A DNA stretch of 64,000 bases from Lingula anatina (lineage: Eukaryota; Animalia; Brachiopoda). Positions 1 through 60,779 of this stretch are shown piece after piece. The DNA is taken from NCBI GenBank assembly GCA_051362555.1, contig CM120640.1, positions 22,554,225 to 22,618,224 of the forward strand. Reading direction: 5' to 3'. The first letter of the stretch is position 1; each line of letters opens with the position of its first letter. Made by a program: the position numbers and the translations under genes. The notes under the pieces were generated by a model. It was not told the DNA's origin. It was given only the letters and a program-made list of their open reading frames with translations, and ran no database searches.

Positions 1-641
1 ATTCTCTGCAAGATTAAGGTAGGGCCTAAGTCTAAACGCATTTCAGACACATAGAGTACATATTTTTACATATAACACAGCTAATGAAATAGGGAAGTAG
101 CTCAGTCATGGTGGGGAGCATGTTATTTTCTGATCTATAGTCGGTAAATTCGCCTAGCGAAGGCAGTGCATAGTTCATAAAAGGCAGTATAAAGAGCTGT
201 ACAATAAATGAATAAAATTAGAAGATTAATTTTCTTTAAAAAAAGTGGCTCGGGTTTGCAGTTTTACTTTCTGACAAGGAACAGAGGGAAAGAAGGCATA
301 AAAAGTAGCCTAGACGTTCAAAATACCAACCTTCAAAAGAAAAGTTTAATTACTCTCCAAATATTAAACGAAGACGAATTACCCTGCTTGCGCCGTGCTG
401 TTCGCCTAAATTATAAGTTGACTTGAAATTGACAGCATTGTACAAAGGATCTTTCCAAGATCAAGACGGCACTGCTGCCAACGTGAGTTACGCACTGAAT
501 GCAGCCGGGTAGTTTCATCCTCCACCAACCCCGTCAAGGATAAAGTAGACCCCAGGTTAACCTAGCCTGCCTAGCTAAGTATCGTTACCATATCTGACGC
601 ACCTGTCAAATAGATCTTTTTAATCTTTTAATAATCGCGAT

Positions 642-709
642 ATGTTTCAATCTATGGTAGGAAGCTGCGGTGGTGAAGCACATGGAATAGAGGATAATTC
701 AGACGAAAG
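642..709 (+). CDS. Candidate alternative first coding exon of Kv1 (MFQSMVGSCGGEAHGIEDNSDE-R)
   Basis: ATG 642, 22 codons + 2 nt, donor AAG|GTAAGT. Phase 2 matches the internal Kv1 acceptor at 19890/19891. Confidence 0.6.
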
Positions 710-3094
710 GTAAGTTGTATGATATAGTATAAAATGGGCGTATTCAGGCCTTGCCTACGTTAATTGCTGTTTCTTCTGCCAACAGATATTGTAATAGAAT
801 GTAGAATGGATATCTCAATTCATATGCAATGGATATCCAGTCATTCTACTGGCCATAAGGGTCTGTACTGAGTGCAAGACGAACAATAATAATCTGTGAT
901 CTATCTGAATTTGAAAAAACAAATGTATGCATTTGAAATCCATATACCTGCTGCTAACATATCGAGTCCAACGCCATTTTCTTTGTCGGACGGCTATGTG
1001 CATATACGCAAATATTGTTTCTTTCTTCCTTCAGTGCACATTTGTTTTGAAGAAATAGAGAAAAATGACTACCAACTACACAAAAATCTAAAATAATCTA
1101 ATTACTTGCTTAAAAGAATCCTGGCCATCTCTTTAAGATATCAATAAGACGGTCAAATGCAACCTGAGCTGCAGAGCAAGATGTTGATCCATGTTTGTTG
1201 CAGCAAGGGAAATTGTATATTTACTTTAACATTACGTGAACTTGGGTGGAGGGATGATATATGAAGGAATAGTCCTAATGAACACGATGATGACAATAGA
1301 AGTATGCATTTGTTTTACCGTAGTTCCTCTTGCTTTCAAGGTGCGATCACGATACTCGGTGAAAGATGCAAAAGCGAAACATTGTTTTTCTTCTTGTCCT
1401 TTACAGTATATTCAGATGCTAAATGTCGGAATGTAGCCGGTTCTAAAGTCTGAAAATACATGTACATTTTAATGATAAACTATTAAAATATGAGAGATAA
1501 TAGTTAGTGAAATAAAAGGTGAGAGAAAAAGCACATCAAAGTAGAGGAAATAGACGTAAATCACATGCAGTGCAATGCTGTTTCCAAGTCAGCAACTCCA
1601 GGAAACTTCTTGTGCATGGGTCTTGCACACGACAAGATATAAGCACTGAAATTACGGAAAGGGCAGGTCTCAAATGGCAACCTGAAATTGGCAGACTACC
1701 GCACGGTGCGCATTGTTTAAGGTGGTTTTAACGTTCTTTTTATGTCGTCAATGCCCTGGCATCAAGAAAACTAACGAGAAGTAGATTTGCTGAAGGATGA
1801 ATAACTACCGGTAATCATATCATGGTTTACATGGGTATACTGTAGATTGGCGTCCAGGAACATAATTCTAATTATATGAGTGGAACTGCCATATGTCAAC
1901 TACATTCTGTGCCCGAGCTCTGTAATTTGTTTGAGTGAGCCGATGTGCGCGAGTGACGACATTATCCGTGGTCACAACAACACCTGCATTACGAGTTGCT
2001 GGCACGTAGAAAAATCAACGAACCCTCAAGAATTTTTGCTATGTAGCAGTAGGCCTACATCAGACATATAACATTACTATTTTTACTTTTCAAAGTTGAG
2101 AGCCTTAATGTGATTGAACGGGAAATGATGTGACTCCATAATGTACTTGTTGTAGGCCTATTTTCAATGTGAACATAGCGAGTGACATATTTCGGGTGGT
2201 GGAAAGCATGTAACGGTTGGGAATACAATACTTAAAATAGACATCTCGTAGAACATAACTTTGTAATTTTGACACCTGTGCATTATTTGACGAGGTTTTA
2301 TGTAAACAGATATCAAACAAAATGAAGCCAGAGATTCGTTGGTAAGACGGTTTGTCATGTTAATGGGGAGAGGGGACACAAAAATGTGAGCAATTTTCAA
2401 ATCATCATTAGGAAAGAAAAAAATGTATATGAACCTACCAGGGATTTACCTGTTTAATTCAGTACATTGAAATGATTCACGACATTTTACATTGTCGCTC
2501 CCGCAAAATCAAATATTCCTCGGAAAAAACGATGCATTTATCCCACTCGCATATCATGCTCGGCCCGTTCCTGCACTTGGATTCGATGTTTCATGCCATT
2601 TCTACTTTGATTTAGACTGCCATGTATTCCTGTACATTTCAGAAGGAGAAATTGACATCAGCTTCTTTTATTCGACGGAATTTCTTCATTTAAAAGGTCT
2701 GAATGTGCAGCATATGTAAACAGAAAATATTACTTGAAGATAATTTTTAACAAAATCTCCAGAAAAATCAAAGTAAACAAATGGTTTGGCATTTATGGGG
2801 CGAGCAAAAATTAACTGACAACTGTGACTGCAACGAAATGGACCGAGAAATGATCAGGACATCTGTATATAAAAAGAAATTATTGAAAAATGCCCAGATT
2901 CAATGTGTTAGCACACATTTTACGAATATTGCTCAGATCACGCAAAAATTCACCAGGCATCTTTTGTCCAAGCCTTGTCCGGATAATGTGCAAATTGCGT
3001 GACTTGGTCCAGGCTGTCACCTTCGACCTCTCAAACAAACATTTTCAGCAAACGTAATATCTAACTTCTTTTGGACTATTTCATTTGCAAAATT

Positions 3095-3165
3095 ATGTGG
3101 CATCCAACAGTGAGGAGTATAGGGATTTACGCGAGTTCGGAAGATAACGACTCCCTAGATGAAAG
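3095..3165 (+). CDS. Candidate alternative first coding exon of Kv1 (MWHPTVRSIGIYASSEDNDSLDE-R)
   Basis: ATG 3095, 23 codons + 2 nt, donor AAG|GTAAAT, phase 2. Ends like the 642 exon (EDN..DER). GIYASSED resembles GLYGLGED of the Drosophila ShB ball. Confidence 0.6.
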
Positions 3166-4081
3166 GTAAATTAAACTAAGCATTTGTATATCTATTTATT
3201 TTCGAAATAGTTCGAAGCAGAAATATGTCGAGGTAGGGCATGGCCCAAAACACCGGACATCTACGACCAAGTAATCAGTCACATGGGTGGGAGCACGTTT
3301 TAAAAAGGTCAAGATCCGTGTTCTTGCATTTATGTACGGCGAGATTTCCTTTTCTTTTGCATAAGAAGCCTGTTCATTTAGCAAAGAGAAAAATTAAGGT
3401 TTGACCAGAAATTAGAGCCAGTATATAGAAGTTCCAACTCATCTGCCGAGAACGAAAACGCAACCTGATTTAGAGGCAAGACTATGCACAGCGTTTATAC
3501 CCATAGCCCAAATATAGGATGTGTTGGGTAATGATCAGTGTTCAGTAGTTTTTAGACTAGCAATGTAAATATACTTCCTTCTCTTCAAATGACTGCATTC
3601 AAAATTTGTGCGCATCATCTATATCAAAATACCTTGGAAGAAACACTTAAGACAAAATCATGTTGACGATATTTTTCATTTTACAAGTGATTATTTCCAG
3701 ACATTTAACCTTTTTTAAGCATCGATATAAATGTTTCTTCAGCATTTTACCGTTTTTTTACAGTTATTCTCAACTAATTACTTTGTGATTGTGCAGCGTT
3801 CTCTACACCTCGCACCACTAATGCAATGGTCTGCAAGAGGGCAAAACGGTATTGACAGCAAGCTTTATCTGCCTTTTTATAGATGAAATTTGACAACATC
3901 CTAAAATAAAATATAAAGCACAAGGGCATTTGATATCCAAGGTATCATCTGGTGTTGAGAAATCCGGGGGGACGAGGGAGGGGTGATAGTGCGCTTCTAA
4001 AATCTATTATTTTTTTAAGTTAAATAATCCACGGTAAGGGGTGAACAATTTCTCTTGATAAAGCGAACAAAGTCTTCGAAA

Positions 4082-4113
4082 TTTATTTTTTATTCATTGC
4101 AAGTTGCTTTATT
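4082..4113 (-). terminator. Polyadenylation signals of SNRNP70
   Basis: AATAAA on the minus strand (plus TTTATT at 4082, 4089, 4108), about 270 nt past the stop codon. Confidence 0.55.
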
Positions 4114-4375
4114 AAACAATGTAGTTACATTCCCTTTGTTTCAAAATAAAACAAATGACCTTAAAAGATGATTTAAAGCTCAATGTCGCTGTCCATCACA
4201 CGTTTTTTACGATCTCCAAACAATTTCGCTATTTTGATTGGACGAATTTCAAATCTAAATTAAAAATCCAAACATCTGAGAATAAAAGTTCATAACCATC
4301 ACAAATGCACATGAAAATATCAAATAAAAGACATGAAATGTGCTTTAAGTTTAGGCATGATCAGCAACGTTCAAG

Positions 4376-7300
4376 TTAGTTTTCCTCACTGACATCCCCT
4401 GCACCACCATATTCTGTATAGTCCAGAGCTGCTGGTTCAGCTTTTAGCGGCATTGGCTCAGAGCCGTACTCTCCAACAGAACCGTACTCATTGCTATCAT
4501 CATAACTTTGTTGCATCTCTTCCATTGAGCGACTGGATTGATCATATTCTCCGTAGCCATTCTCGCCACCATTCTCTCCATTGCCATATTCCCCTTTATC
4601 CTCGTACTGTTCTGCTTTCATAGCCTCCTGATCACCCGATGCTTCATCCCCTCTTTCACCAGCACGATCTCTGTCTCCACGGTCACGATCACGTTTACGG
4701 TCACGGCTTCTGCTACGGCGGCTTCTTTTCCTATCACGTGACCTACTACGCTTTCTATCACGCGACCTGCTTCGACGACTGCGTTTGTGTGAACGGTCTC
4801 TGGAAGAGCCTCCCTCTTCTTCTGCTACGAAATTAAAAAAAGGAAAGAAAAAAGATTGAGTATTCTTCTGTTATGGAATTTATTAAGATTGAGTAGATCC
4901 AACCAACCAACAATTAAGTATAATATTTTTCATAGCATTTACAACAAGCAAATAATTTATTTTAAATCATATCACAGGCGTCTCTGGTTAAGTGGTTATT
5001 TAATATCAAATCATAAATAAATCTGTCCAGGGAAAAAATATTCTTCATACCTCCTTCAATCTGATCTTCTGGCATCGCATCTCCATCCATGTCTCTCTCT
5101 TTGTCTCTCTCTCCTCTCTCCATGTCCCGGTCCTTATCCCTGTCTCTGTCTCTGTCACGGTCTCTATCCCCACGGTCACGATCACCTCTGTCGCGGCTGC
5201 GTCTGCGGTCCCTGCTGCGAGAACGTCGGCGACGTTCCTTGCTCCTGCTTCTCTTCCTCTCTCTGCTACGACTGCGCTTCTTACTGCGAATACGCTCCCT
5301 ACTTCTGGACCGTTCTGCTTCACGACTGGCACTTCTCCTTCTCCTGAAATGATTTTTTAAAGAAGTCTTCATGAATATTTGCCACAACGATTGATATATC
5401 AGTAAATGAAGTACATAGGATAAAACACACTTCCCAAGTATTTTAAAGGCTAAGATAATTCTCATTGTAAACCAGTAAAAGAATTCTTACCCTTCATTGT
5501 CATCCCTGCCTGAGAATTTAGTGTTCACCTCAGGTCCACCTTTACGTGTGCCTCCTAGCCCACCACCTGCAAACAGTCATAATAAATATTTATACACCAA
5601 TTCTTTTATTAATACATTTTAAATAATGTAGTGTAAAAGAACCAAATCCTTATTATTACTTTTGAAACATTGTCTTATATAAATACATAAATAAATGCAC
5701 TCATTTCCCAGGCAATTTTCATCTTTAAACATACATAAATATGGGAATACAAGTGTATGTATGTATGGTATCTTAAACACACTCGGGTAATATCTAAACA
5801 CCAAGAACATTATCTAGTCTTTTTGTCAGGCAGAATAACTACATAAAAAGAGTTGGTAATCATTTCTTCTTCTGAGACAGATTTTTCTTCAATATCAGTT
5901 AAAACCTACCTAGCCTCCTTGGTCTCCATCCCTTCACAGTTCTCGCCCTCTCCACATCAACCAGTACACGGCGACCATCAATTTTTTTGCCATCTGCATG
6001 CTTGTAGGCAGCTAAACAAAAAACAGCAATAGATGAGAAATAACAAACCACAAAATCAGTGCTTTCTGTGCTATATCAAGTGCAGGATCAATCTGATACC
6101 ACTTGTCTAGTAAGTATGAAGATGCCAAATGGGAAATCATGGCATCAATTTATTAGATAAATAGGGGGTGCCTTAACCCCTGACCTCTGAAAATCAGAGG
6201 CAAGTTTTGATTGATTTCCAGTAAGTTTAAAACAACCAATATGAATAGGAACATCTTTGAAGTGTGTATCAATCATGATCGTGCTCTTGTTTTGTTCAAA
6301 AATCCTATGCTCTTCTTGCACGTCCACAAACATCTAGTTCATTCTTCAGGCAGGGGTAAAACTGTTCTGTCTCAAACTTACCTGAAAGGTCACCAAACAG
6401 GGGCAAAATTGATACCAAATTTGTACATTGACAATAGTTTTCAAAATTCAATTTTGTACCTGTTTGGGAATTTATATATTAAAACATATTATTCTGATAT
6501 AAAAAAAAAAAAGATTTTAAAAAACTTTCTCCCAGCTACAACTTTCTACACACCAAACACTGAAAATGGTCATTAAAGAAATAAAAGTTCCAATTCTTGG
6601 CACCTCAGCTTCCTCCATCTTCATTTCTGCAACTGATGGTCCTCCTCGTCAACCTACCTGGTTACATCAAATCAATGCACTTATATCAAAATAAAGAACT
6701 TACGATGCCTACTTATCTGAAGGGGGTCAGTAGTTGATTCAATTCATTGACTATGGATCATGGTCATCACGAGGCCTGATGTCCACTTCTGTGAAAATCC
6801 CACGTGAACTTACCCGGCCTTACCTGATTGGCTTTTTTTATTAACTTTTTTCTTTTTAATCTATATTATTCAAAATGACTCTATACAAAAACTAAAATCC
6901 AAAATGTCAAAAAAATTTTGTTTCAAATATGAAGGCCAATGCATCTTTGCTTCATGAATTTTCTATATTCAAATCTCCAAAAATATAATTTGACAAAAAT
7001 CCAAAGTAAATTTTTCCCACTGGTTTTATTTATTTAAAGCAAAAAAAATTCCCTGGATTGTTTTATTCTAACAAAAAAAAATTTTTTTTAATTAAAAAAA
7101 AAAAATCTGACTTTTTGAACATTATTTGTATAATTTCAAACCACCTGTTACCTGATTGGTTCCCTACCTACCATGGCCATTTTGAAGAAATTCCTGTTAT
7201 GGACCAGTTGACAGCCAAACCAAACATTTTCATATCAACATTGCAGTCTAGCAAAGTTTTAAAGTTTAAGTTTCATAGCAACCCCATGACCTGTGACATG

Positions 7301-9533
7301 GTGCGGTTGTGAAACTTTTTTTAAGATTTAGAAGTGCAGACCAAAAATTTTGCAAGAGAACTTGAAGAACATCAATTACATATTTTTCCCATTTACAAGG
7401 ATACAGTGGCTTTAGTTATGTTGCAAACCATGCAACATTTTAACCTGACTGTTCAACTTCAAGAGAGATTTTTTCATTTCAAAAGCATGCACCCAACATA
7501 CAAATCCTAAAATCAACTGTTAAATTTGGATAAATCAAAAGCAAATTCTGGAGTCAGGTTTTGTACTATGTGGAAGGTACACGACCCCAAATCTTACCAC
7601 ATATACAAACCTATAAATGGATTCCCACGTTAACTATGAGCAACTTTCAAAAGGATGGGGCCACTTAGACCAAGGACAGCAGAGGTCTGCAGTAACAAAA
7701 ATAACAGAGATTAATAAATATTGGTTCCCAAACATAAAAATGATTTCTGTTGCTCCCATATTATTTTCTCAAAATATTATTAATGATTACAAAAATGTGA
7801 TGTAAATCAAAACAAACACCATAAAAAACCTGGCTTACCACTGTTTCCAATACATTTTACCTGTCTTACCATTTTGGGATAAACATGGAGGGAAAAGGCC
7901 AATGAAAAAAAAAAAGCTGCAAATGACTTGTTATATAATCAAAACTGAATAAATACACCTTTATTTTACTTTAAACACTGGTCTGCTTCTTCAGAGGGCT
8001 GTCCATCACAAACAATGGCTAGATAAATGAGATAATAATACCGTAGCACACCAAATTTAAAGGAAATGAGATAAACACACCTTTGGGCTACTATTCATCA
8101 ATAGTAAAGTAAAGACTATCTGTCAACCAGTGGCCACTAAACTATACAAAATGACTTGAAATAAGGGCTCTTGCTATTCATCAAACTTTTTTAACGCCTG
8201 GTTTAACATCCACTGGATAAAGATGACCATGACATAAGATATCCCACCATTGTGCCTATTTAAACCCTTCACTGGCCCCTACACATAGGGACTGAGCCTG
8301 AGGTCATCAAACTTTCTTACAAAGTTGAGCTTTCAAAGGAGTGTTTAGTATGCAACTGTCACAAAACTAGCATAATGGTGAGACAGAATCGTAGGCCTTC
8401 TGCAGACATTTTCATCAATTCCAATGCCTCTCACAGGTAGGGCAACTTTTTAAATAATTATGCTCATTTTTAAAAAGAAACCAAAATAAGGTGCAGAAAC
8501 AAATAAAGGACATGTCTAGAGAGATAAGACTAATTTGTTGTGGGTGATCACAGAGTGAGAACTTTGTATAAGTATCTAAAGATGTAAGGTGTAAAATAGA
8601 TGTGTGTCACTAGCCATAAGGCAGTTTTTTCTATGAGGGCGTTTTTTTTTTTTCAATAGAATAAATCATAAGGTGTCTTCATTTGCTGTAATCTGTCAGT
8701 GAGTTATCTGTATGGTTATCCCATCTAACCCAATATGGGGCAGGAGTGCTGCAATAGGTTTAGAGTGAGTAAGCATGATGTATATGAAGTCTGTTCTCAT
8801 CCCCTATTTGTTTTCATGTTGTATATCAATTTAATACTGGCATTTCAAAGAAGGGTGTGAAATTGAAATTTTGGTTATGTAGGCCTCATTTGTTTTAATA
8901 CTTACAATGCATGTCTCTCTCATGTTCATACTCAATGAAGGCATAACCTCTGGGTTTTCCAGTGTTTCTGTCCTTGGCCACCGAGATCTGATAAATAAAG
9001 GAAAAATGGTTAGAATGATTCATTCATATCTATCAAACTGGGCTGTTTGTTTTTAGTAAGTCATGTGACCAGCAGTTACACTCATCTTCCTTCCTCAGGT
9101 ATGACCCTGATGGATTAAGATTTGCTCTAAGGTGTTGGAGACACAAAACGACACACACACGTACATACATCAAATATTAGGCCAAGTCTGTACTTTGTTA
9201 AGATGATCTCTTTCTTCTATGTCAAAGTTCCACATCAAAACCACAAAAATTCAGGCAATAACAATGTGAGGACAATCTTTAACAACTTGTAACTTTACAT
9301 TCAATTAAAATTTGCCACCTCAATATCAATGGGGAAAATTTCAGATGCATAATTTCAAATTCATTAAAATTATAATTCTGTGTAACATTGGGGGTGCTTT
9401 TTCTTTATAGAATAGAACTTAAGTTAGTCTGCTTTTGATTTTATTGCTATCTAAAGGAATGTTTCAATTTTAAGAATTTAAGACTTTTAAAAAATTAGTA
9501 TCTTTATCCCCATTAAAAAGCTTGAGTCATTAC

Positions 9534-9564
<31 letters not shown>

Positions 9565-12500
9565 TGGGGGGGGGGGGGGGAGGTTTCAATGATTAAAAGG
9601 ATTAATCTTTTTCCCATTAAACAACTTCAAAGATGTAACGTATAAAAATGCCACAGCAACAATTTTACTCTTATGAATCAATCCTGATGTTGTTCTAACC
9701 TTTCAAACCACCTCAAAATGAAGCACTATATGAAAACATGTTTATGGTCACTGATAGATAATTGATTATACCCTTCCTGATACCTTATTGTATCAGAACT
9801 CAAACAGCAGAATCTGTGTTCTTTGATCCTGCAAGGCCATACAATTTTCCTTGCAAAGAAGCTTTGAAAGCAACATCAAAATAACCTGTTTTTATTTGAA
9901 AGTAACTACATGGATAGGCATGAGCACTCAATGCTCTGTTTGAAAAGGGCAATATCGTCTCAAAACCCTGTTTTCAATGCATCTACCATGTTTCAATTAT
10001 TACAAAATACCTGATGCTGTCAAGATGGCTCGCCTGCTTAGATTAGTTAACACTATCATTACTTCACCATACTATAAATCCACCCAGTTAAAAAAGTTTT
10101 CAATTCTTGTCATAAAATGAGCTTCTGCATGCTCTGTAATTTACCCAGTGTTAAATGCCTCAGTCTTGGAAAGGCACACAGTTATGTTATAAATTTAGAC
10201 CTTCCCTACTACATCTTGTTTGTCAATTAATAAAGCCATCAACTGAAAGATTTTTGGGGACTCTTTTTCAGCATCCAAATATGTAGTTCTTAAAACTGAC
10301 GAAAGGGATTCATACAAGGAAAAAATACTTATTATATCCTGTCCCTCTCTAGAGGTATTTTATCAGGCACTCTTGTGAGTTACTGATATATTGTGCTGAC
10401 ACAGCTAATGTCTTATGTTCCAATTACTGTACCAAAAGACTGATGATCATGAGGGGGGGAGGAAAGTTAATATTATGAAAATGATGGTAACAAAAACCAC
10501 AGTCACCATTAAAAAGTTGACATTTGATCCAGATAAAACAAGTCATGCTTATCTCTGTAATATATGTTGCGTGCAGGTCAAATCTCTGCTAGACCTCATG
10601 ACTTCTAACACTATTTATTCATCAACCTGTCTTCACATTTGTATAAAATTCAAGTTAAAGTAGTCACTTTTAAACCACTATTTTCAGGATGAACAGGTTG
10701 GTTTGTCGATGTAGCAACTGGGTCTGGGACCAGTTTCATGAAGCAATATTTGGCTAATGGTGACCATTACAGAGTTTTTAACTTAGAAAAAAGAAACTAA
10801 ATGTGCATTTAATACAGAGATTAAGCAAATGAACCTCATAGCAAAACAGTCAATTAGCTAAGCATGGCTTCTTGAAACAGGGCTCAGAACTCTGAGAAGG
10901 TAGATCTATTTCTTATTGGGTAAAATACAGGAAGGTGAAATATAACTAATACCACTACTATAACAAATAGTTTATAGATCTCGAAATCAATGTTAAATAA
11001 GTTTTATGCTATTTTTAAGTATACCGATATCTGTCTAGCTTCTTCATATTGCAGTTTCCAATGATGCTGGCCTATTTCTAATAATATATGAATGTAAATA
11101 ACTCGGTTTAAGGTCATTCACAGAAAGTGCACCTGCACATTTGTGATTCTTTTTTTTTAAGATGCTTTATGACCCCATTCCCACAGACACCACTGATCCA
11201 TGTAGAACAATCCATCTCTGCAGGGACTCTCGCTGAATGCAATCCCATTAACAGATTAGTCTACCTCCTCCTGGCCTTGAGTGGAATACAGAAAGTATGT
11301 TGGAAACAAGAGTAGGCACATCAATCTGTTTAAGCTGATTGGATTCAGCAAGAGTCCCCTGGAGTTGGATTGATCGATGTAGACCCATTGTTTCAATGGG
11401 AATGAGGCCTATGACTGTGATTTTAATTTGAAAGAAAAAAAGATGCGTTTACAACTCTAATGCTCTAAACAAAAGAAAAAAGTCTTACAGGAAAAAAAAC
11501 TTTGCAGAGGTTAACAAAGATAACTAACTTTTTCCTTATTTTATGTGAAATAATCCCAGGCTTTAAATGGCAAAAACTTTTATTCAATAAGTATGAAAAA
11601 AAGGACTTCAAAATGTCGATCCCTAGTTTTTTAACTGCAAAAAGCTCCATACGTCATTACTTAATCTGCACTTTAAAAAGATTCACAAACGCAGATCTTA
11701 GCTTTTCCTTTTATAACTTGTTCTTTTTAAATTTGAATAAATGTTTTAGGGTCAAATGTAAGTCATATTAACTTTCCCTTGCATAATTTGAAAACAAATA
11801 TATCAACTGGGTTGACTTGACTTTAAAAACCAGTTACAGTGATTATTAACATGCTGCTTCACTGCACTAAGTAAACATATACAAACATTTAAAAAGTTTA
11901 ATCAAGCGCAATTGTGACAAAGCAGCTCTCATTTGTTGTTGTGTGGGTAAAATATAGAAACTATCAACAACAATTCTTACAATGAGTAATTTTAGAACAA
12001 CATTCTATGTAAAAACTTGGACAAAATGCACTGTTGCATTATTATTGTTTTATATAAAACCTATACAAATAGCAACCTTTGGGCTGCTAGTTTTCTATAC
12101 ATGTAATTGCAGTTGTGCAATTTAACATTACTTCCTTACAAATCATGAACCTAGCATAGCATAATGCCATATTTGAATGAAAATAGAGCAGAAAATTAAA
12201 TGCTTCAGAAGCAGTGAAGCACATCAAACATTTGACACATTCAGTAAGAAAAGTAGGACAACGAAGAAGTATTTTACCTTCTTAACTGGACCATACACTT
12301 CGAATTCCCTCCTCAGCTTGGATTCACTGGTGTCATAGTTCTGAAAGGAAAGAAGGTAAGCTGCACATTTCCATTTGTATGTCTACATAACAGGCAGTCT
12401 CATTCCTTAAAGCAATACAATAACTGGCAGCAGGGTTTCACAACAAGGATTTGACATACCACACCCTTGTTACTGATATCTTAAATAGCATAATTACTCT

Positions 12501-13877
12501 GCCAGGGATAAAATGCATCTCACTTGTACAAAAGATGTGACATTTGAGGCGGTAGAGGTATGATGGAAGTGACATTAAATTCAGACTGATAAACACAATC
12601 TATGTATTCCATCCACCATCCTGTGAATACTGAAAATAGGTAAAAAGAAATGTGCCATTGGTGAAAGATATCATATTTATATTCAAAACAAAGCAAAAAT
12701 GTCTATAAATATAAAACGACTTTTTGATAGTATCCCATTTCATAACTGCAATACTTACAATTCGCGCCACAAATAATGTCTTGAAAGGGTCTTCAGTCCC
12801 ACTTGGAGTGTTTGTTGGATCCCCTGCAAAGAAAAAAACAGAGTACATGAGAAATATGCTGGCTAGATACAATAATTAATTTGCCTATTTATATAGAGAA
12901 CCAATAGAATGCAGCCTTGCAACATATAGCAAATAGCAGCTCAGTGGCAAAACACATGTCAGAATAATACACAAGAGGTCATGGGAATGAAGCCTTTTGT
13001 ACCATCTCCCTAATCCTCTATTTATGGAAGGCTTAGATGCGAATGAAATATCCCTGAACTACAGTCACCAGTATATCCTAAGCTCAAAGACAAATATTGT
13101 ATTTTAAAACATTTGCTCACAGGAGCATGGCTCCTTGTTCCCCTTCGCTTTCTAGTGCTCACAAGCAGCAATGATATATTTTGACTGGAGTGGGGTTCCC
13201 TGACAGGGAAAGAAATATGATGCCAATCTACTAGTTACAGCTTTGTCAGGTATACCAGCAAGATGTACAGGTGAGTTAAACTGTACATTACAGAGCCAAC
13301 ATGGAAGGTAGGGGGGGGGAAGGGTTTTCAAACATGTACATGGCTAACAATTTGTTAAAGTATAATGCCTCTCACTAACTCACAACAAACCTGGCAACAG
13401 CATTTAGGAATGATTGCCTTTCAAGATATATTACTCTTTCGTTTGACCTTAGAATACTTATTGAGGTGGTTGAGTAAATGCCACCGAAAGAGCGATAGAC
13501 AACGAGCTAATAGATGTGTAATGACGTATGCATGTTCATATGTACTCCATATTGTTAACTTAACTGTGATTTTAGGAACAATTAAGACAGCATTGTTGTG
13601 CCTTATCCCTTCTATTATCCAATGTTATGCACGTTTACATCATAACCTTACATCTGGATTTTTAGTTAAATCAAATTACGTTGTGAGCTAAATCCACTCT
13701 GTATCAACACAGCAATAACATAAAAGGAAAGTAGGACCCGTATGTTTAGAACAGGGATCTAGTCTGCTTGTATCTGAATCATTTTGCAATCATCAGCAAT
13801 GCTGTTCTGCTCTCCAGGATATACTCAGACAGATTTGATTTTGCTAGTTGTATTACATATATGAACACCATTATATG

Positions 13878-13920
<43 letters not shown>

Positions 13921-16900
13921 GTCTTTTACCTCTGGAATTACTACACTGTATGATAGTAATGCAGTAATACTTTGGTAAGATGTTTAATCTTCCTGGTGTT
14001 TACTACTTATACTAACATGAAAGTGGTTAGTGCAAGTGAAAAGCCCAGGTATAATTTGCTCTACATCAAACTTTATTAAAATATTTCAGGTATCATTCGT
14101 GCTAAAATTAACAGATAAGTGTATAACTGAATCTTTCAGTTTTTGTAAATGATTAAAGAATTATTTAGTGAAACGCATTTGAAAACATACCATACATAAC
14201 ATACATAATTAAACTCTTTAAATTGAGATAATTGAAATAATCTATTAAAATCATTCTAGTTTTAAAAAGATTAATAATACTGAATGCATTTTTATGTACC
14301 ACAACTATTATCCAGTAAATCTTTTATTTGTGCTGTAATTATAATAACCCAGTAACATTTTGTTTTAAAATTCACTTGTAAAAAATTTGGTAATACCCAG
14401 CAGATCTTTGTTAACTACCAGATTTATAAGATGCCATCATTTTCTATCAAAATTCAATAACTTGGAAAAAACCAAGATATAAAATATGCAGTAATCAGAA
14501 TAATCAGTTTTTCATAAACTGTTGCAGTATTCTTTTAAGCTCAGGGAATAAAATCAACCATTTTCTTAAAAACTGTTTTGTAACTTTTTAAAATAAATTT
14601 TCAGCAAAGTGATGCATAAACCAAAAAAACAACTGGTTATCTTAAATAGCATAACTGTTATACACATAGTCAAAAATATTAGCCAATGGTACTGTTCAGC
14701 AAAACAGATGCCAAAAGCCTATTAATATGGAAGCCGGTCGGTCTATAGGTAAAATAGGCACAACAACTGTTGTTTAGCATTTGCCTATCTAACACAACAA
14801 GATATGGTTGCAATTCCGATTTAAGATCCTCTTCACAGCTTCGCACCTGGTGTAACCTGCAGGCTGCACAGGCTTTACATGAAACGCAATGTTTGCTGCT
14901 GCAGTGAATTAAATCTAAACATTACTGCCTTAAGCTGGATTGTTTACTTAAAGGAATAAAGGTCGAATTATTGATTGCAGATTTTAATTGCATTTTCAAT
15001 ATTTCTTTTACTTACTGCCCAATGACATCTTCCACTTTTTCATTCATTCAATAAAAATGCATTTTCTGGTTCTTTAAAAATTTGTTTGGTCATAATAAAA
15101 TTCTTTGTCATTTATTGCTATGACCCTTTGCCTGGAAAATTCAATTTCAAACAATGCTTCGCAAACTTGAAACTTTTTTAATTGCCTCTTTCATCTAAGA
15201 ACAGTTACAAATTGGTGTGTTATCTGAAAAAAATCTTTTTTGTTGTCTAGAGAACGGTGACAACCAGTTTGAGTGCTTTTTCAAATAAAAATTCTTTAAA
15301 ATGAAATGAAAATCAACATAAATCATAAAGGCGCTGCTAATGCCTTCAAACTGATCGCCCCCACCTATTCTTGTTGTATCAGTTTGTATATATTAGACAG
15401 CATATTCCCAGACCTCAGTAGGATGCCAAATGAGGAATGGTTTCCTGCCTGTAAGTGGGCAAACAACATCTCTTGACATTCAGAATGCTAACCTCGATAC
15501 TAGTGGCATTTGTTTCTGTTTCCCATCACTTGGTTGCCTCAGAGTGTTGCTCATTATAAGAATAAACTACGTTATTCTCCAGCTTAAGTTTGCGTGGATT
15601 TGGATATATTGGACACCCAACGCAAGCAAGTGCGGGCAGAATGATTGGTTTGGGTAATTCTGAGCAAAGTCAAAGGTGGGAGTGGTTTTGTTATTTTTTT
15701 TCTATGAAAAAGGGGAATGGGGGGTGGTGGTTAACAAAAAACTTGTTTTCTCAACCTGAGAAAGAAATTATTAGGCCTTTTCAATATATAGATATAATGA
15801 GAATGGTATAATCAATACACGTGAGGTGCACTTTATGGATGTGCATGTTGCATGTTCAACAGTCTGGTTGCTTGCCTCATCTGCATGCACATTCCATTTC
15901 ACACATTTTACGTTGCATGCACTGTGCAATCTAAAACTGAAAATGGACTAGTAATTCAGTACATCTCCTGCAACAAATAGATCTTAGATTAACAGATTGC
16001 AAAAGATGTTAGATGCAGCTTGTGCTCTTGTCGGAAATGTTGCTGCCACATATAACAGATTTTATTACATCTAATTCATTTGTAAGGCCCTTAAAGCAAA
16101 CAGGTTAGCTGCTTTACTTAATGACAGAACAGGGGTTGATCTATTTCAGGTATCTGTAGTCAGTTTGTAAGGAAAGGTGTGTTAAGTATGAGAATATAAT
16201 TACTACCTGGACTGTGAAAGCCAATAGCTTTAACTTAACAACAGATGTATGAGGAATGCACTTACGGTTCACTACTACACCATCAAAATAGACTGATATT
16301 TTCAGCGAGTTTGCCAAGGGTCTATTTCAATCACCAATATCAAACTTACATAATGCCAAATCTTGCTCTAGCTTGTATGCAACCTGCTCAGCTCGCTCTT
16401 TTCTCTGAAACATGAGAGGTTTCATTTGTAAGAAGCTATCAAAAAATCAGGTAAGATGAAATATATTAAAATTCAGTAGTTCTGGGAGTAAGTTTCTATA
16501 CTGCAACACAAGGTACTTTTAATAAGTTTTGATGTTTAATGTTTGAAATTTATGTAGTTTGCATTAATATGACAGTTAAGGCACTGGGTGCACATTAAGT
16601 TCCTTACCTTCCTTTCTTTGCGTTCCTCTTTGGTTTCAGCCCTAGTAGGTGGGGGTGTATCCTTAGGGTCCTAAAATATATAACTAGCAATATTTATCTG
16701 GAAATTGAAAATGCCTCAAGTGCCGCTTACAGAAAGCTGTCTAACAAAATGTTTAAAATATCAATAGCAATTTCCTTTGGGTACACTAAAGATCAGTAAC
16801 CCTAGTTCAAGTTGTGCTAGTAATTCTAACATTCTCTATGCATATATCAACAATTTTTACCGTCTCGAAAGGAGATATATATGTGATGAGCAAATGGGCC

Positions 16901-18975
16901 TGCTCAAGCAAACGTATGTGTTAAAGAAGAAAAAAGCCTATTGCAATGTAGATCATTAATTCTGAATGTAATAGGGTTCTAAACGGGCTTGTGTATAATT
17001 TTTCTTATGTGGTTAAACATGTGACATGTACTGCATGTGTGAGGCTACATTTCACCTTTCTTTTTTCATGGTGCTATATATTCCCAATTCCAATATCTTT
17101 TCACAAATGATGGGTCTGCCAGACCCATTATTGTGTCAAATGGGAATACTTCCTTTCTTCTATTCATGTGCAACAACCGGGTCACATTTGTCATGCGGAT
17201 CTTTTTTATATATCCCATATTATTCAGAGCAAGAAGCACATAACTGCATATTACAAAATACTAACAATAGAGAAGAGCACTGCAGTTTTATGGAGATAAG
17301 TGCTATAAACAAAGGATGGCTAGACATAAGCAAGCTCTATAGCATGAAGATGGATTATTTAATGTTCGTTCTCCACAGCACTTAATTTCTGTTGCTGTTT
17401 ACAATGTGATCTAATTTTGGCACTACAGTAGAGGCACTGATATCTGTATATACAGACTAGCATTATAGGATCAGCTGAAGCAAATTGATGGCTTTAGGAC
17501 TATTCCAGAACCAGATCCTGGGAAATTCATATGGAGTCACAATGCTGCCTTGCTTTTCTGAAAAGCTTAAACAGTGCTTATTTATTAACATTTGGTTTTT
17601 CTCTTTCCAATTTTGTGTGTTCTTAATACAAAGGTTTTCTCCATGCCTCTTAGGTTCAGAGACCCAGAAACCCGTGAATCATTGCGGCACGAACGCAAAG
17701 TTGCTGCAAGAAGAATTCAACGGGGCAGCAAAAAAAGAAAAGCATCAACAGCATCTGAGACTGGACAGGATCTCCGGAGAAAAAGCAGCACCCCATCAAT
17801 GTTCAAAGCACCCAGTCCAACTTTACTGGATAATGCTCAAATAATGGTGGACAAATTAGACCCAAGTCAGTGTATTCCTAACGAAGATAAAGATGCCTGG
17901 AAACTCAACAATCAAGTCCCCGAAGCTTATCACCTTGTGTCAGTTCCAGATGATGATCAAGTTGCCCTGTTACCACCCTCCTCTCCTAGCAGTCCTGTGA
18001 CCAAGTAAGTGTTCAAGTGTAGGTTCAATAATGCTTATGAAAACAGTAGTTTGAAAATTACCATATAGCAGTTAATCTACATATGAAAAGACAAGATCAA
18101 TATGTATGGATTAAGAGAGATCGACAAAGAAAACAAACCTGACAACAATAGTGTCACTGAAGCTTCTCTTCCACACCTGGCATTTTTCCTACATGCACAG
18201 ATGCAATCACTGATTCAATTACGCGTTACTTTCTGATAAGAAACAATAACTAATTACATTGGAGAGTAGATAATGCCGTTTGAGATTTGGGGGTATGTCT
18301 TCCCATTGCATGCAAGGCCCTATTATCAGCATCAAATTGTATGACTGATCTCACTAGACTACTGTGTGGGAGACTCCACAATCAATGGGATATTGATTGC
18401 CTGTGAAAACCAAAGGAATAATCAAGCATCTGAATTGGTCAAATTCGGATCAGTTTATGTGTAGCAGATCTTTGGGCACTCTACACCAATTGTGCTGATT
18501 AAATTAACTGAGAATGCAATGAATTATTAATTGAAATTGTGTCGATGGTGTAGATTGGAAGTGTGAACAATAAGCAGTAAGGAAGATACCTGTCACATCT
18601 TTGGCTACCGTGTCTGTGTTATGCACGTGAAAGGTCCACTCTAGAAGTTACGGAATACTTTTTCATGTAGACGGCCAAGTACCACGAGGATGGCAACTAT
18701 TGTTTCCGCCATTTTGGAGTTGTAAGTTAAATTAAGAAGTCAGCTTTTAGTTCGTATGCAAATGTTAAGCGTCAGAAGAAATCAATTGGACTTATTAAGT
18801 GGGCAACATAGGCATATTTTAAGCAACTTACCTCAAATTCGTTCAAATTGTTGGCTACTCCGAAGTATGGTACCCTCTTCTTTTCGTGTGGTAGCTTTGT
18901 TACTGGTGGAAGATATGGAATCGGGTCGCGTGGCGCAAAAAGCGCAAGCAAATTTGGTGGTAAAAATTGTGTCAT
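4376..18975 (-). CDS. SNRNP70: U1 small nuclear ribonucleoprotein 70 kDa (10 coding exons, about 463 aa)
   Basis: Exons (minus): 18832-18975, 16608-16670, 16350-16404, 12759-12823, 12278-12340, 8906-8987, 5910-6011, 5491-5566, 5051-5343, 4376-4824. All introns are GT-AG with consistent phases (1392 nt). Translation gives [53 protein letters not shown], the RRM motif [54 protein letters not shown], then RS/RD-rich repeats. Confidence 0.97.
8375..8436 (+). CDS. Candidate alternative first coding exon of Kv1 inside an SNRNP70 intron ([21 protein letters not shown])
   Basis: ataATGG context, 20 codons + 2 nt, donor CAG|GTAGGG, phase 2, PKA-type motif RRPS. Confidence 0.45.
9534..9580. repeat. 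(TA)n followed by poly-T and poly-G runs
   Basis: Direct reading. Confidence 0.85.
10724..10887. mobile_element. Degenerate MITE-like element with terminal inverted repeats
   Basis: Left end CTGGGACCAGTTTCATGAAGCAATATTTGGCTAAT versus reverse complement of right end CTGAGCCCTGTTTCAAGAAGCCATGCTTAGCTAAT. Confidence 0.5.
11171..11409. mobile_element. Fold-back MITE (Tourist/PIF-Harbinger-like)
   Basis: Ends GACCCCATTCCC...GGGAATGAGGCC with long imperfect inverted arms (CAATCCATCTCTGCAGGGACTCTCGCTGAATGCAATC vs rc CAATCCAACTCCAGGGGACTCTTGCTGAATCCAATC) and a 3-bp direct flank TAT. Confidence 0.65.
13881..13918. repeat. (TA)n microsatellite
   Basis: Direct reading. Confidence 0.95.
17643..18004 (+). 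CDS. Candidate long alternative first coding exon of Kv1 inside the first coding intron of SNRNP70 (120 aa)
   Basis: ATG 17643, stop-free and protein-like for 120 codons ([33 protein letters not shown]...[11 protein letters not shown]). Ends exactly at donor CAA|GTAAGT in phase 2. Confidence 0.65.
18690..18721 (+). CDS. Candidate short alternative first coding exon of Kv1 ([11 protein letters not shown])
   Basis: aggATGG Kozak context, 10 codons + 2 nt, GTAAGT donor, phase 2, hydrophobic ball-like peptide. Overlaps a YY1-like CCGCCATTTT motif, which is an alternative explanation. Confidence 0.4.
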
Positions 18976-19089
18976 AATCTACGAGCACAGATCTTTTGTG
19001 TTCTAAAAAGGTTCGCGGTCCAACGTAAGTCAGAATTTAGGAGTAAACGTATTAGAATGACTAAGATTATCTGCTGAATATTCGATTAC

Positions 19090-19140
19090 CATTCCCTCTT
19101 CGTCATCACATGCCACCCAATAATGGCTTCCACCCTATAC
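19090..19140 (-). other. SNRNP70: Probable non-coding first exon / TSS region of SNRNP70
   Basis: Acceptor AG at 18980-18979 just before the ATG requires an upstream exon. Donor ATG|GTAATC at 19090/19089 lies in a CpG-rich segment. The upstream boundary is approximate. Confidence 0.4.
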
Positions 19141-19792
19141 CCGCTTTTGTAGTCACAGGTGCAGATATCCCATTCATTACTTGCCTTGTTTACGTGCGCG
19201 TACTGTATAGAATAAGGTAATAGTGTTCTTCCGCGCTGCACCACCAAATAGTTATTTTAAAACTTTAGAGTATATGCTGATTGTATTTGCTTAAAAAATT
19301 AAGTCAGACAAGCGGAATTCATAACAGAGAATATAGTAAAGTATATCTTAATTAATTATAGTACGTTTTAGATGTTCAGTGGACGGTGTGAACTGTCCCT
19401 AGTGGGACGCGATAATGACCGCATTACCGACTTTCTAGGGCACCTGCCAGCCTCGCTCTGGTCAATATTCATACGCTAATGGCAGATCTTGCGGTGTGAA
19501 TGGCCCAGTTGCCACGACGATTGTATTGATTTTTCAGCCATGAAATATTGGACTTAGTAGCTCAAATTTGTTCAGTAGCCTCTATTGACAATGCAGTTTT
19601 ACTGGGATGCATAGGTGACGTCAAAGAATAATATTCATCCGGGCTATCCCTTATTTTTGTGGAAGCCATCTTGCAGAGAGCAGAAGGCTTGCAAGACTGT
19701 GAAACGACATTATCAAAATTTCGAGGCTAGATTTTATTGAGAAGTGGGGGTTTACCCCCGTGATAAGGCCTCACCGCAAGCCAGTAAGCGGG
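19140..19792. promoter_or_regulatory. Divergent CpG-rich promoter region between SNRNP70 and the proximal Kv1 start, with a full CRE
   Basis: Head-to-head arrangement, local CpG enrichment, palindromic TGACGTCA at 19616-19623, YY1-like GCCATCTT near 19667. Confidence 0.55.
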
Positions 19793-21373
19793 ATGGAGGT
19801 CGCTATGGCTGGAGTGGAGGGGAATGGGGGACCGCCGCCTTATATGAATCAGAAACCTCATCTGAATCGTCCCTCTCTTCCAAATTCCAGGTCTTTCCCG
19901 AGAATCGGCCCAGACGACGATGCTCCAAACCAGGACGACTCACAGCTGCAGGGGAACACTGAGTATGAGTGCTGTGAACGTGTAATCATCAATGTAAGTG
20001 GTCTGCGCTTTGAAACACAGCTCAAGACCCTTAGCCAATTTCCAGAGTCACTGCTAGGAGACCCAGCCAGAAGAAACAGGTACTATGACCCCCTGAGAAA
20101 CGAATACTTTTTTGACAGAAACAGGCCTAGCTTTGATGCCATATTATATTATTATCAAAGTGGAGGAAGACTACGGAGGCCTGTCAATGTACCTTTGGAT
20201 GTATTCTCAGAAGAAATCAAGTTCTATGAATTAGGAGAAGAGGCAATCACAAAATTCCGAGAGGATGAGGGTTTCATCAAAGAAGAGGAGCGAGTGCTTC
20301 CTGAAAACAAAATACAGCGAAAGATCTGGTGTCTTTTTGAATACCCAGAGACATCCCTTGGAGCACGTATTATTGCAATTTTCTCAGTATTAATCATTTT
20401 GTTATCCATTGTTATATTTTGCCTGGAAACTCTACCTGAATTCAAACACTACAGGGTTGTTAATACAACCATCAATGGCACTGGGCATACTCTGGAGGAG
20501 GATGACATACCAAAATTCAGTGAGCCATTCTTTATTATAGAGACAGGGTGCATAGTATGGTTTACATCTGAGCTACTTGTAAGATTTGCTTCCTGCCCAG
20601 AGAAATTGGGCTTCTTTAAAGACATCATGAACCTTATAGACATAGTTGCCATCATCCCTTATTTCATTACACTTGGCACAGTGATTGCAGATGAACAGGA
20701 AACTCCAGAACCTCAGAAGAAGCAACAGAACAATCAAGCAATGTCATTAGCAATCTTGAGGGTGATCAGATTGGTAAGAGTTTTCAGAATATTCAAACTA
20801 TCCAGACACTCAAAAGGATTGCAAATTTTAGGACAGACTCTAAAAGCTAGTATGAGAGAATTGGGTCTGCTCATTTTCTTTTTATTCATTGGAGTCATAC
20901 TCTTCTCTAGTGCTGTGTACTTTGCAGAAGCGGACTCAGATGCATCACACTTCAAGAGTATACCAGATGCATTCTGGTGGGCTGTTGTGACAATGACCAC
21001 TGTAGGTTATGGTGATATGAGGCCTATAGGTGTGTGGGGAAAGCTGGTTGGTTCTCTGTGTGCTATTACTGGTGTGCTAACAATTGCACTCCCAGTCCCT
21101 GTTATTGTTTCCAACTTCAACTACTTCTACCACCGAGAGACTGAAAATGAAGACAAGCAGCAAGCATATGTACATGTTCAGTCTTGCCCCAACTTCCCAA
21201 GAAGAAAAACTGCTTCATCGGATGCATCAGATCATGAGGATGATGAGGAATCAGACATAATGGAAATGGAAGAGGGTATGGCATTGACTACAGGTTTGGA
21301 CAAACAGACAAAACAAAACCATGCCAATCTCTCCAATGATGCTAATAACATGAGCATTGAAACTGATGTATGA
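19793..21373 (+). CDS. Sh: Shaker/Kv1 voltage-gated potassium channel, intronless core (526 aa from ATG 19793)
   Basis: T1 domain ([43 protein letters not shown]), S4 [23 protein letters not shown], filter TTVGYGD, PVPVIV gate, C-terminal PDZ ligand ETDV. N-terminus [14 protein letters not shown] resembles Aplysia Kv1.1. The ORF-track start at 19760 is a GTG. Confidence 0.97.
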
Positions 21374-60500: not shown

Positions 60501-60722
60501 CATATAAATAAATTATGTTATTTATTTTCTTATTTTCTTTCTAAGCATATGTATTATGTCATTACAGACCATTAATAACTTTCTTTTTTAATTCAGGATG
60601 ATGGCTTGATGATCTTATGTGCCTCCTGCAGGTACTGGCAACATGCAGTATGTTTTGGAATTATTGATGAAAATGAAGCTCCACAAAATCATATTTGCAA
60701 TTTTTGTGCAAACGTAAGTTTT

Positions 60723-60779
<57 letters not shown>

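What the first reader, a model, noticed from the sequence alone, without database searches (positions are those of the whole stretch)
4082..19140. Entire housekeeping SNRNP70 gene nested antisense within, and interleaved with, the Kv1 transcription unit
Inference from the exon array: transcripts starting at 642 or 3095 must traverse all 15 kb of SNRNP70 in antisense, and other Kv1 first exons sit inside SNRNP70 introns (8375, 12602, 13263, 17643, 18690). Convergent transcription, pre-mRNA duplexes or promoter interference could couple U1-70K levels to Kv1 isoform choice in neurons. It may also explain why SNRNP70 introns are long only in this interval.
Basis: inference. Interest (0 to 1): 0.72.

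Follow-up and report, generated by a model that had tools for sequence, protein, structure and literature searches.

The report
Potassium channel gene wraps splicing gene
In this brachiopod the Shaker (Kv1) potassium-channel gene has annotated start exons inside and beyond the oppositely oriented splicing-factor gene SNRNP70, and the two genes sit head-to-head in other animals too, likely an ancient pairing held by interlocked DNA rather than by one gene regulating the other.

Summary
The window is Lingula anatina, a brachiopod, not a mollusc. The nesting is real and already implicit in RefSeq. Three Kv1 isoforms map to window exons with 0 mismatches. The longest (642-709 > 17654-18004 > 19891) spans all of SNRNP70; two others start in its introns. 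Corrections: 17643 is a shared internal exon, 8375 and 12602 are unsupported, and a first exon at 15641 was missed.

What is new is depth. SNRNP70 starts head-to-head 0.8-1.1 kb from the Kv1 start codon here and in 4 of 4 testable animal contigs. The two genes carry near-consecutive accession numbers in 12 of 14 lophotrochozoans and three Daphnia records. A published table puts KCNA7 and SNRNP70 in the same megabase in human and lizard.

Regulatory coupling is not shown. No exons overlap, the long isoform was about 50-fold rarer than SNRNP70 in the one stranded run that showed it, and SNRNP70 has its own poison exon. No read joining 709 to 17654 was listed. Side finding: a conserved in-frame extension, likely AUU-initiated, precedes the Kv1 inactivation ball.

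The parts
642..709 (+). Kv1 distal first coding exon (RefSeq X1, MFQSMVGSC...), beyond the SNRNP70 3' end
   Evidence: 0 mismatches to XP_013403461.1; trace of RNA in unstranded run X8, bin 301-967 depth 0.21
3095..3165 (+). Candidate second distal Kv1 first exon (MWHPTVRS...), phase 2
   Evidence: Donor score 6/7, above the chance background, and similar to exon 642; in none of 4 RefSeq isoforms; no reads in X2, X5 or X8
4100..19109 (-). SNRNP70 (U1-70K) transcription unit, 10 exons, ATG at 18975
   Evidence: RNA joints and molecule ends; tblastn with P0180; Pfam U1snRNP70_N + RRM_1
7386..7686 (-). SNRNP70 alternative acceptor at 7686 leading to an early stop (poison exon; far end not mapped)
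   Evidence: Joint 7686-8906 in X2, X5, X8; in-frame stop about 18 codons in; resembles vertebrate exon 7a (PMC3798272)
8375..8436 (+).
   Evidence: Donor score 5/7, chance level
12602..12639 (+).
   Evidence: Donor score 4/7, chance level
13263..13270 (+). Kv1 first coding exon MY (RefSeq X3) in SNRNP70 intron 12822-16349
   Evidence: 0 mismatches to XP_013403463.1; donor score 7/7
15641..15675 (+).
   Evidence: 0 mismatches to XP_013403462.1
17654..18004 (+). Shared internal Kv1 exon of the long isoforms, in SNRNP70 intron 16669-18831
   Evidence: In RefSeq X1-X4; plus-strand reads in X5; top hit of a profile of 10 mollusc shared exons among 2883 ORF pieces, E 0.028
18690..18721 (+). Kv1 alternative first exon [10 protein letters not shown], about 110 bp from the donor of the first SNRNP70 coding exon
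   Evidence: Like N-termini in Haliotis rufescens X2, Mya arenaria X5, Mizuhopecten X2 and P0006; no Lingula transcript seen
19110..19717 (.). Head-to-head promoter interval, CpG-rich, with a TGACGT (CRE-like, recalled label) core also present upstream of Kv1 in relatives
   Evidence: CpG o/e 0.63-0.86 at 18-20 kb against about 0.1-0.35 in the gene bodies; Kv1 5' UTR reads from about 19500 in X2; alignments
19718..19792 (+). Conserved in-frame extension upstream of MEVAMAG, likely AUU-initiated (25 codons)
   Evidence: CAAAATTTC invariant in 6 of 6 loci; 72 or 75 nt to the ATG; differences by codon position 42/33/95 in 5 sequences
19793..21373 (+). Kv1 core coding exon (single-exon MEVAMAG isoform; internal acceptor at 19891 for spliced isoforms)
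   Evidence: Rfam K_chan_RES at 21002-21115

Best explanation
Kv1 and SNRNP70 lie head-to-head, and the annotated upstream Kv1 exons sit in SNRNP70 introns or past its 3' end, so the longest Kv1 transcript would run antisense through all of SNRNP70; this is likely an ancient neighbour pair that became physically interlocked, not a regulatory circuit. Steps: (1) shown: SNRNP70 starts about 0.8 kb from the Kv1 ATG on the other strand, here and in other animals. (2) Shown by RefSeq mapping, weakly by reads: Kv1 swaps its N-terminus through alternative 5' exons, in two tiers (short first exons > shared exon > core) plus a direct [10 protein letters not shown] exon and the unspliced MEVAMAG form. 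(3) Inferred: because SNRNP70 fills the space upstream of the Kv1 core, any extra Kv1 promoter has to arise inside or beyond it. (4) Inferred: once such exons are used, a break between the genes would cut off Kv1 isoforms, which helps keep the pair together. (5) Inferred: the overlap is tolerated because mature mRNAs do not overlap, the long isoforms are rare, and U1-70K buffers itself with a poison exon.
For: Isoforms X1-X3 map with 0 mismatches. Head-to-head at 826-1144 bp in L001, L003, L004, L005 against 818 bp here. Accession numbers within 6 in 15 of 22 record sets, including 12 of 14 lophotrochozoans (tallied in 56). The two-tier N-termini recur in Haliotis, Magallana, Pomacea, Mya and Ruditapes, and the MAT(I/L)VS(A/T)IL exon in 4 other proteins. 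Human and lizard KCNA7 share a megabase with SNRNP70, and amphioxus scaffold V2_157 holds both families (PMC3280201 supplement). No exon overlap. Poison exon.
Against: No Kv1 junction reads were listed, so the 17-kb splice rests on a RefSeq model. Interleaving was not seen directly in any other species: a motif search found no [13 protein letters not shown] or shared exon upstream in L001, L003-L005, though L003 and L004 hold only about 340 bp beyond the U1-70K exon. Vertebrate KCNA7 has only two exons (PMC1978502) yet stays linked, so interlocking cannot be the only glue. 7 of 22 record sets were not adjacent. Accession adjacency is an indirect proxy, and species were those with both genes in the hit lists.
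Confidence: 0.62

Rival explanations
1. The pair is kept by a shared bidirectional promoter: the MEVAMAG Kv1 isoform uses the open housekeeping promoter of SNRNP70, and the upstream exons are a later lophotrochozoan by-product with no part in the linkage.
For: ATG-to-ATG distance stays at 0.8-1.1 kb in 5 of 5 DNA loci; the interval is CpG-rich; the unspliced isoform dominates in run X2; linkage persists with two-exon KCNA7. Most ancient gene pairs are 5'-5' (PMC3514665).
Against: Conserved upstream blocks lie within about 200 bp of the Kv1 ATG, on the Kv1 side only. Kv1 isoform use differs between runs while SNRNP70 is high in all three raw-read runs. The human genes are about 12 kb apart (recalled).
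Confidence: 0.2
2. One reading: antisense passage of the long Kv1 transcript through SNRNP70 (polymerase collision, pre-mRNA pairing or promoter interference) couples U1-70K level to Kv1 isoform choice in excitable cells.
For: The geometry allows it. The [10 protein letters not shown] exon lies about 400 bp from the SNRNP70 start and is conserved. The 17-kb first intron has 24 sense AATAAA sites that U1 snRNP would need to suppress (established U1 telescripting, recalled).
Against: Long isoform about 50-fold below SNRNP70 in X5 and absent in X2; no plus-strand intronic signal in the clean bins of X2 and X5. No exon overlap, and AATAAA is as common on the other strand (22). U1-70K has a separate feedback loop.
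Confidence: 0.12
3. Only the head-to-head pair and the intronic exons are real; the X1 model that makes SNRNP70 fully nested is an annotation error.
For: No junction 709-17654 listed; the 301-967 bin is empty in both stranded runs.
Against: The exon has a perfect 7/7 donor in the right phase, a trace of RNA in X8, and a sister exon at 3095. RefSeq isoform variants normally need transcript support (recalled).
Confidence: 0.06

Closest known systems
Conserved ancestral microsyntenic pairs and genomic regulatory blocks (Irimia et al. 2012, PMC3514665; passages read, supplements not available)
   Same: Unrelated genes kept adjacent across phyla, mostly 5'-5'; a housekeeping bystander's introns carry sequence that serves a tissue-specific neighbour.
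   Different: Here the bystander's introns carry promoters and coding exons of the neighbour rather than enhancers, and the target is an ion channel, not a developmental regulator. Neither gene is named in the main text; the pair list could not be read.
Nested and interleaved opposite-strand genes (general class, recalled)
   Same: A whole gene inside an intron region of another, on the opposite strand, with no exon overlap.
   Different: The inner gene is the highly expressed essential one, nesting holds only for some isoforms, and the underlying linkage is very old.
Drosophila Shaker alternative 5' exons; Aplysia AKv1 and the Kv1 ancestral inactivation domain (PMC3634772, passages)
   Same: Alternative N-termini joined just before S(F/L)P(K/R); the MEVAMAG ball on a single-exon form.
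   Different: That paper describes such genes as simple and often single-exon; here a two-tier upstream exon array threads through SNRNP70, and an in-frame non-AUG extension precedes the ball.
Vertebrate NTF4-KCNA7-LIN7B block (PMC3280201, passages and supplement file 8; PMC1978502, passages)
   Same: KCNA7, the basal vertebrate KCNA, is listed at the same megabase as SNRNP70 in human and lizard.
   Different: The main text does not name SNRNP70 and does not extend the link to protostomes. Direct adjacency and head-to-head orientation in human are recalled, not read from a call.
U1-70K exon 7a NMD switch (PMC3798272, passages)
   Same: Alternative 3' splice site in the intron after the RRM exon, giving an early stop.
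   Different: The passages read show it in human, mouse and zebrafish; here it is in a brachiopod, and U1C dependence is untested.

Membership tests
Nested antisense gene | Inner gene lies wholly within the outer gene's transcript span, opposite strand | tested here: met
   RefSeq X1 spans 642-21370 and SNRNP70 4100-19109; rests on the gene model
Nested antisense gene | Outer splice seen directly in RNA reads | tested here: inconclusive
   No joint 709-17654 listed in 4 runs; listing needs 3 reads and coverage was below that
Interleaved genes | Exons of each gene lie in introns of the other | tested here: met
   Exons 13263, 15641, 17654, 18690 lie in SNRNP70 introns; 0 exon overlaps
Ancient microsyntenic pair | Adjacent in distant phyla | tested here: met
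   DNA in 4 of 4 testable contigs; accessions in brachiopod, molluscs, an annelid and Daphnia; same megabase or scaffold in chordates
Ancient microsyntenic pair | Conserved 5'-5' orientation and short distance | tested here: met
   818-1144 bp ATG to ATG in 5 of 5 DNA loci; orientation cannot be read from accession numbers
Genomic regulatory block | Target is a developmental transcription regulator | tested here: not met
   Target is a Kv1 channel
Genomic regulatory block | Conserved enhancers in bystander introns act on the target | not testable with these tools
   No orthologous intron DNA or enhancer assay; conserved Kv1 exons were found instead
Bidirectional promoter pair (co-regulated) | Divergent starts under about 1 kb apart | tested here: met
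   SNRNP70 molecules end near 19109; Kv1 reads begin near 19500
Bidirectional promoter pair (co-regulated) | Correlated expression or shared elements | not testable with these tools
   Only three raw-read runs of unknown tissue were laid
Regulatory cis-natural antisense pair | Overlapping mature RNAs, or a shown effect of one transcript on the other | tested here: not met
   No exon overlap; no intronic antisense signal; perturbation not tested
Kv1/Shaker | T1 (BTB_2) plus 6TM Ion_trans; best hits Kv1 | tested here: met
SNRNP70/U1-70K | U1snRNP70_N plus RRM and RS tail | tested here: met

The most novel reading that the evidence does not exclude
Kv1 and SNRNP70 have been a functional unit since the bilaterian ancestor. 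Kv1 builds its N-terminal repertoire out of SNRNP70's promoter and introns, local U1-70K transcription sets which Kv1 promoter fires, and a conserved AUU start adds a 25-residue cap in front of the inactivation ball, so that promoter choice and start-codon choice together switch fast inactivation on or off. Human KCNA7-SNRNP70 is the surviving ancestral locus.
Probability: 0.15. Interest if true: 0.82.

Novelty: new variant of a known kind. Interest (0 to 1): 0.55.

Why it matters
It identifies a Kv1-SNRNP70 linkage that reaches from a brachiopod to molluscs, an annelid, Daphnia and probably chordates. This marks KCNA7 as the likely ancestral Kv1 position and suggests a plain way a gene pair gets locked: one gene's alternative exons colonise its neighbour. 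It also shows that lophotrochozoan Kv1 is not a simple single-exon gene. If the AUU extension is translated, the natural N-terminus of the classic N-type-inactivating Kv1 differs from the one usually expressed in oocytes, which is directly testable.

Tried and rejected
No genome is held for this window, so nothing outside 64 kb was examined. The run search listed no RNA holder; 9 raw-read runs came by species label. Only X1, X2, X5, X8 (4 of 10) were laid; the other six were not seen, which leaves junction-level proof open. X1 is a divergent relative (mostly under 95% alike) and was not used for expression. Searches for later U1-70K exons and for upstream Kv1 exons in L001-L005 gave nothing convincing (the listing was cut at 40 rows and did not reach L004 or L005). 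L002 was dropped from the head-to-head count because it holds only 96 bp upstream of the ATG. L004 was dropped from the codon count as a near copy of L003. phmmer with the Lingula shared exon found only Lingula proteins. Rfam found no RNA family in 1-19 kb. Ten literature searches listed no paper on the pair, its nesting or a non-AUG Kv1 start; PMC6625096 is only a gene list; PMC4595640 and PMC2229315 gave nothing relevant. The library lacks most subscription papers, and the Irimia 2012 supplements could not be read and may list this pair. Earlier-finding look-ups were empty. Rejected: 17643 as a first exon; 8375 and 12602 as exons; a mollusc origin; Kv1 exons as the cause of all four long introns.

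Full report
Identity. The plus-strand ORF 19793-21370 is a Kv1/Shaker channel, 99% identical over 95% of its length to Lingula anatina XP_013403462. The minus-strand gene is U1-70K, identical to Lingula XP_023931923 in its first exon. The window is therefore a brachiopod, not a mollusc. No genome is held.

SNRNP70 structure. Reads from runs X2, X5 and X8 give nine constitutive introns (4821/4824-5051, 5342-5490, 5564-5908, 6011-8906, 8987-12278, 12340-12759, 12822-16349, 16404-16608, 16669-18831) and one alternative acceptor at 7686. Molecules end near 19109.

Kv1 exons. The protein cluster holds four RefSeq isoforms. X1, X2 and X3 are reproduced with 0 mismatches by first exons 642-709, 15641-15675 and 13263-13270, each spliced to 17654-18004 and then to the acceptor at 19891. 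X4 starts at a Met inside the shared exon. So X1 spans all of SNRNP70, and X2, X3 and the shared exon lie in its introns. Exon 18690-18721 ([10 protein letters not shown]) is in no Lingula isoform I saw, but near-identical N-termini occur in Haliotis rufescens, Mya arenaria, Mizuhopecten and P0006. A chance test found 3 ATG-to-phase-2 exons with donor score >=6 on the plus strand of 1-17600 (ending 709, 3165, 13270) against 0, 0, 0, 1 in four controls of equal length; at >=5 the count was 7 against 6, 3, 4, 5. Thus 3095 is plausible, and 8375 and 12602 are not above chance.

RNA. Four of 10 listed runs were laid. In the stranded runs SNRNP70 reads fall on one mate orientation and Kv1 core reads on the other, which calibrates strand. 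X2 shows Kv1 at depth 10.9 with reads through 19527-19890, that is the unspliced MEVAMAG form, and no plus-strand reads at the shared exon. X5 shows plus-strand depth 0.9 (minus 0) in bin 17643-18309 and core coverage starting at the 19891 acceptor, which fits spliced isoforms. Unstranded X8 has about 3.0 in that bin and 0.21 in bin 301-967. No Kv1 joint is among 15 listed (one hidden); the listing needs 3 reads. Repeat-free intronic bins show no plus-strand depth in X2 (apart from 0.29 at 12974-13640) or in X5 at 9639-10972 and 12974-16308; plus signal over SNRNP70 exons is 1-7% of the minus signal and cannot be told from strand leakage. In X5 the shared exon (about 1.7 when scaled to its length) is roughly 50-fold below the SNRNP70 3' bin (85). 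The tissues are unknown.

Conservation. A scan of metagenome contigs for the MEVAMAG-GNG motif gave 5 loci. In L001, L003, L004 and L005 the same 48-codon first U1-70K exon lies on the opposite strand, 1144, 827, 826 and 1102 bp upstream of the Kv1 ATG, against 818 here. L002 has only 96 bp upstream. L003 and L004 are close relatives, and the host animals were not determined. Accession or locus numbers of the two genes are within 6 in 15 of 22 record sets: Lingula, four Haliotis, Gigantopelta, Babylonia, Bradybaena, Magallana gigas, Pecten, Mactra, Owenia, Daphnia pulex, D. sinensis and one D. magna set. Not within 6: Magallana angulata (55), Pinctada (138), Ampulex (15), Zophobas (2216), a second set listed with D. 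pulex (479), D. magna RefSeq and D. carinata. Mizuhopecten (2.03 Mb) and Ylistrum (0.61 Mb) also show equal contig lengths, whereas Diorhabda does not. These species are those with both genes in my hit lists, and accession order is only a proxy. In the supplement of PMC3280201 (file 8, rows 33 and 147-153) KCNA7 and SNRNP70 are both at human chr19 50 Mb and lizard chr6 80 Mb, and amphioxus scaffold V2_157 holds a KCNA and an SNRP(35/70) homologue. PMC1978502 places two-exon KCNA7 at the base of vertebrate KCNAs. From memory, the human genes are direct head-to-head neighbours and the Drosophila genes are unlinked. Mollusc RefSeq sets show the same two-tier N-termini, and a profile of 10 mollusc shared exons ranks the Lingula exon first of 2883 ORF pieces, at a weak E of 0.028. 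I could not see mollusc DNA, so interleaving outside Lingula is inferred, and it was not detected in L001 or L003-L005.

Mechanism. The simplest account is an old head-to-head pair in which Kv1's extra promoters could only arise within or beyond SNRNP70, after which the genes could not part without loss of isoforms. That poison exon also accounts for one of the four long introns. A shared promoter remains a fair rival, since the linkage survives with the simple KCNA7 gene. A cell-type-specific interference effect is not excluded.

Side finding. CAAAATTTC is invariant in 6 of 6 loci upstream of the Kv1 ATG. Its ATT is 72 or 75 nt upstream, always in frame. Over 19 codons in five sequences, differences by codon position are 42/33/95, with 50 synonymous and 60 non-synonymous codon differences, and the Ser codon after ATT takes all four TCN forms. 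No in-frame ATG precedes it within the open frame, and in the window a stop lies 6 codons before it. A non-AUG start adding about 25 residues ahead of the conserved inactivation domain (PMC3634772) is the likeliest reading; translation is untested.

Novelty. The Lingula nesting is implicit in RefSeq. Ten searches listed no paper on the pair. Papers were read as passages (PMC3280201 also one supplement file); PMC3514665 does not name either gene in its main text, but its pair list could not be read. Verdict: a real, ancient, interlocked gene pair; new variant of a known kind; regulatory coupling unproven; interest 0.55.

Noticed in passing
window 19714-19792 (+); L001-L005 upstream of the Kv1 ATG: Invariant CAAAATTTC followed by a codon-conserved frame (KIS..EKWG(F/L)TP..) running into MEVAMAG; likely AUU-initiated extension of about 25 residues. 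A WGLT(P/Q) motif also appears in predicted Drosophila subpalustris and Penaeus Shaker N-termini.
   Followed up: partly
window 7686 (-), intron 6011-8906: SNRNP70 alternative acceptor with early stop and heavy intron coverage in X5 and X8; looks like the vertebrate exon 7a NMD switch, here in a brachiopod.
   Followed up: partly
window 12974-13640 (-): Run X2 alone shows minus-strand depth of about 30 inside SNRNP70 intron 12822-16349, with many molecules starting at 13313, next to the Kv1 MY exon. No AATAAA or ATTAAA on the minus strand in 13200-13750; a G run at 13312 may make it an artefact.
   Followed up: partly
window 19615-19680 (+): TGACGTCA then TCATCCGGGC and GCCAT(A/C)TTG blocks, shared in whole or part with L001 and L003-L005 upstream of Kv1; probable core promoter elements.
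   Followed up: no
window 21002-21115 (+): Rfam K_chan_RES (RF00485) RNA-editing signal in the Kv1 coding region, 92.5 bits.
   Followed up: no
window 4821/4824 (-): Tandem acceptors 3 nt apart at the last SNRNP70 exon; both used in X2 and X5, only one in X8.
   Followed up: no
window 55627-61459 (+): HORMA-domain exons followed by a PHD finger exon, a HORMAD/Hop1-like gene (family label recalled). An ORF at 58662-59336 in its span looks like an LTR-retrotransposon integrase fragment (recalled; no Pfam hit).
   Followed up: no
window 48985-49332 (-): ORF resembling a ropporin-1-like exon (recalled; no Pfam hit), head-to-head with the HORMA gene.
   Followed up: no
window 2565-2650 and 11200-11380: Repeat-derived reads on both strands; these give false antisense signal in SNRNP70 intron 8987-12278.
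   Followed up: no
window 20000-58000: The Kv1 core and most of the DNA downstream are CpG-depleted (o/e mostly 0.05-0.4), whereas 1-6 kb and 18-20 kb are not.
   Followed up: no
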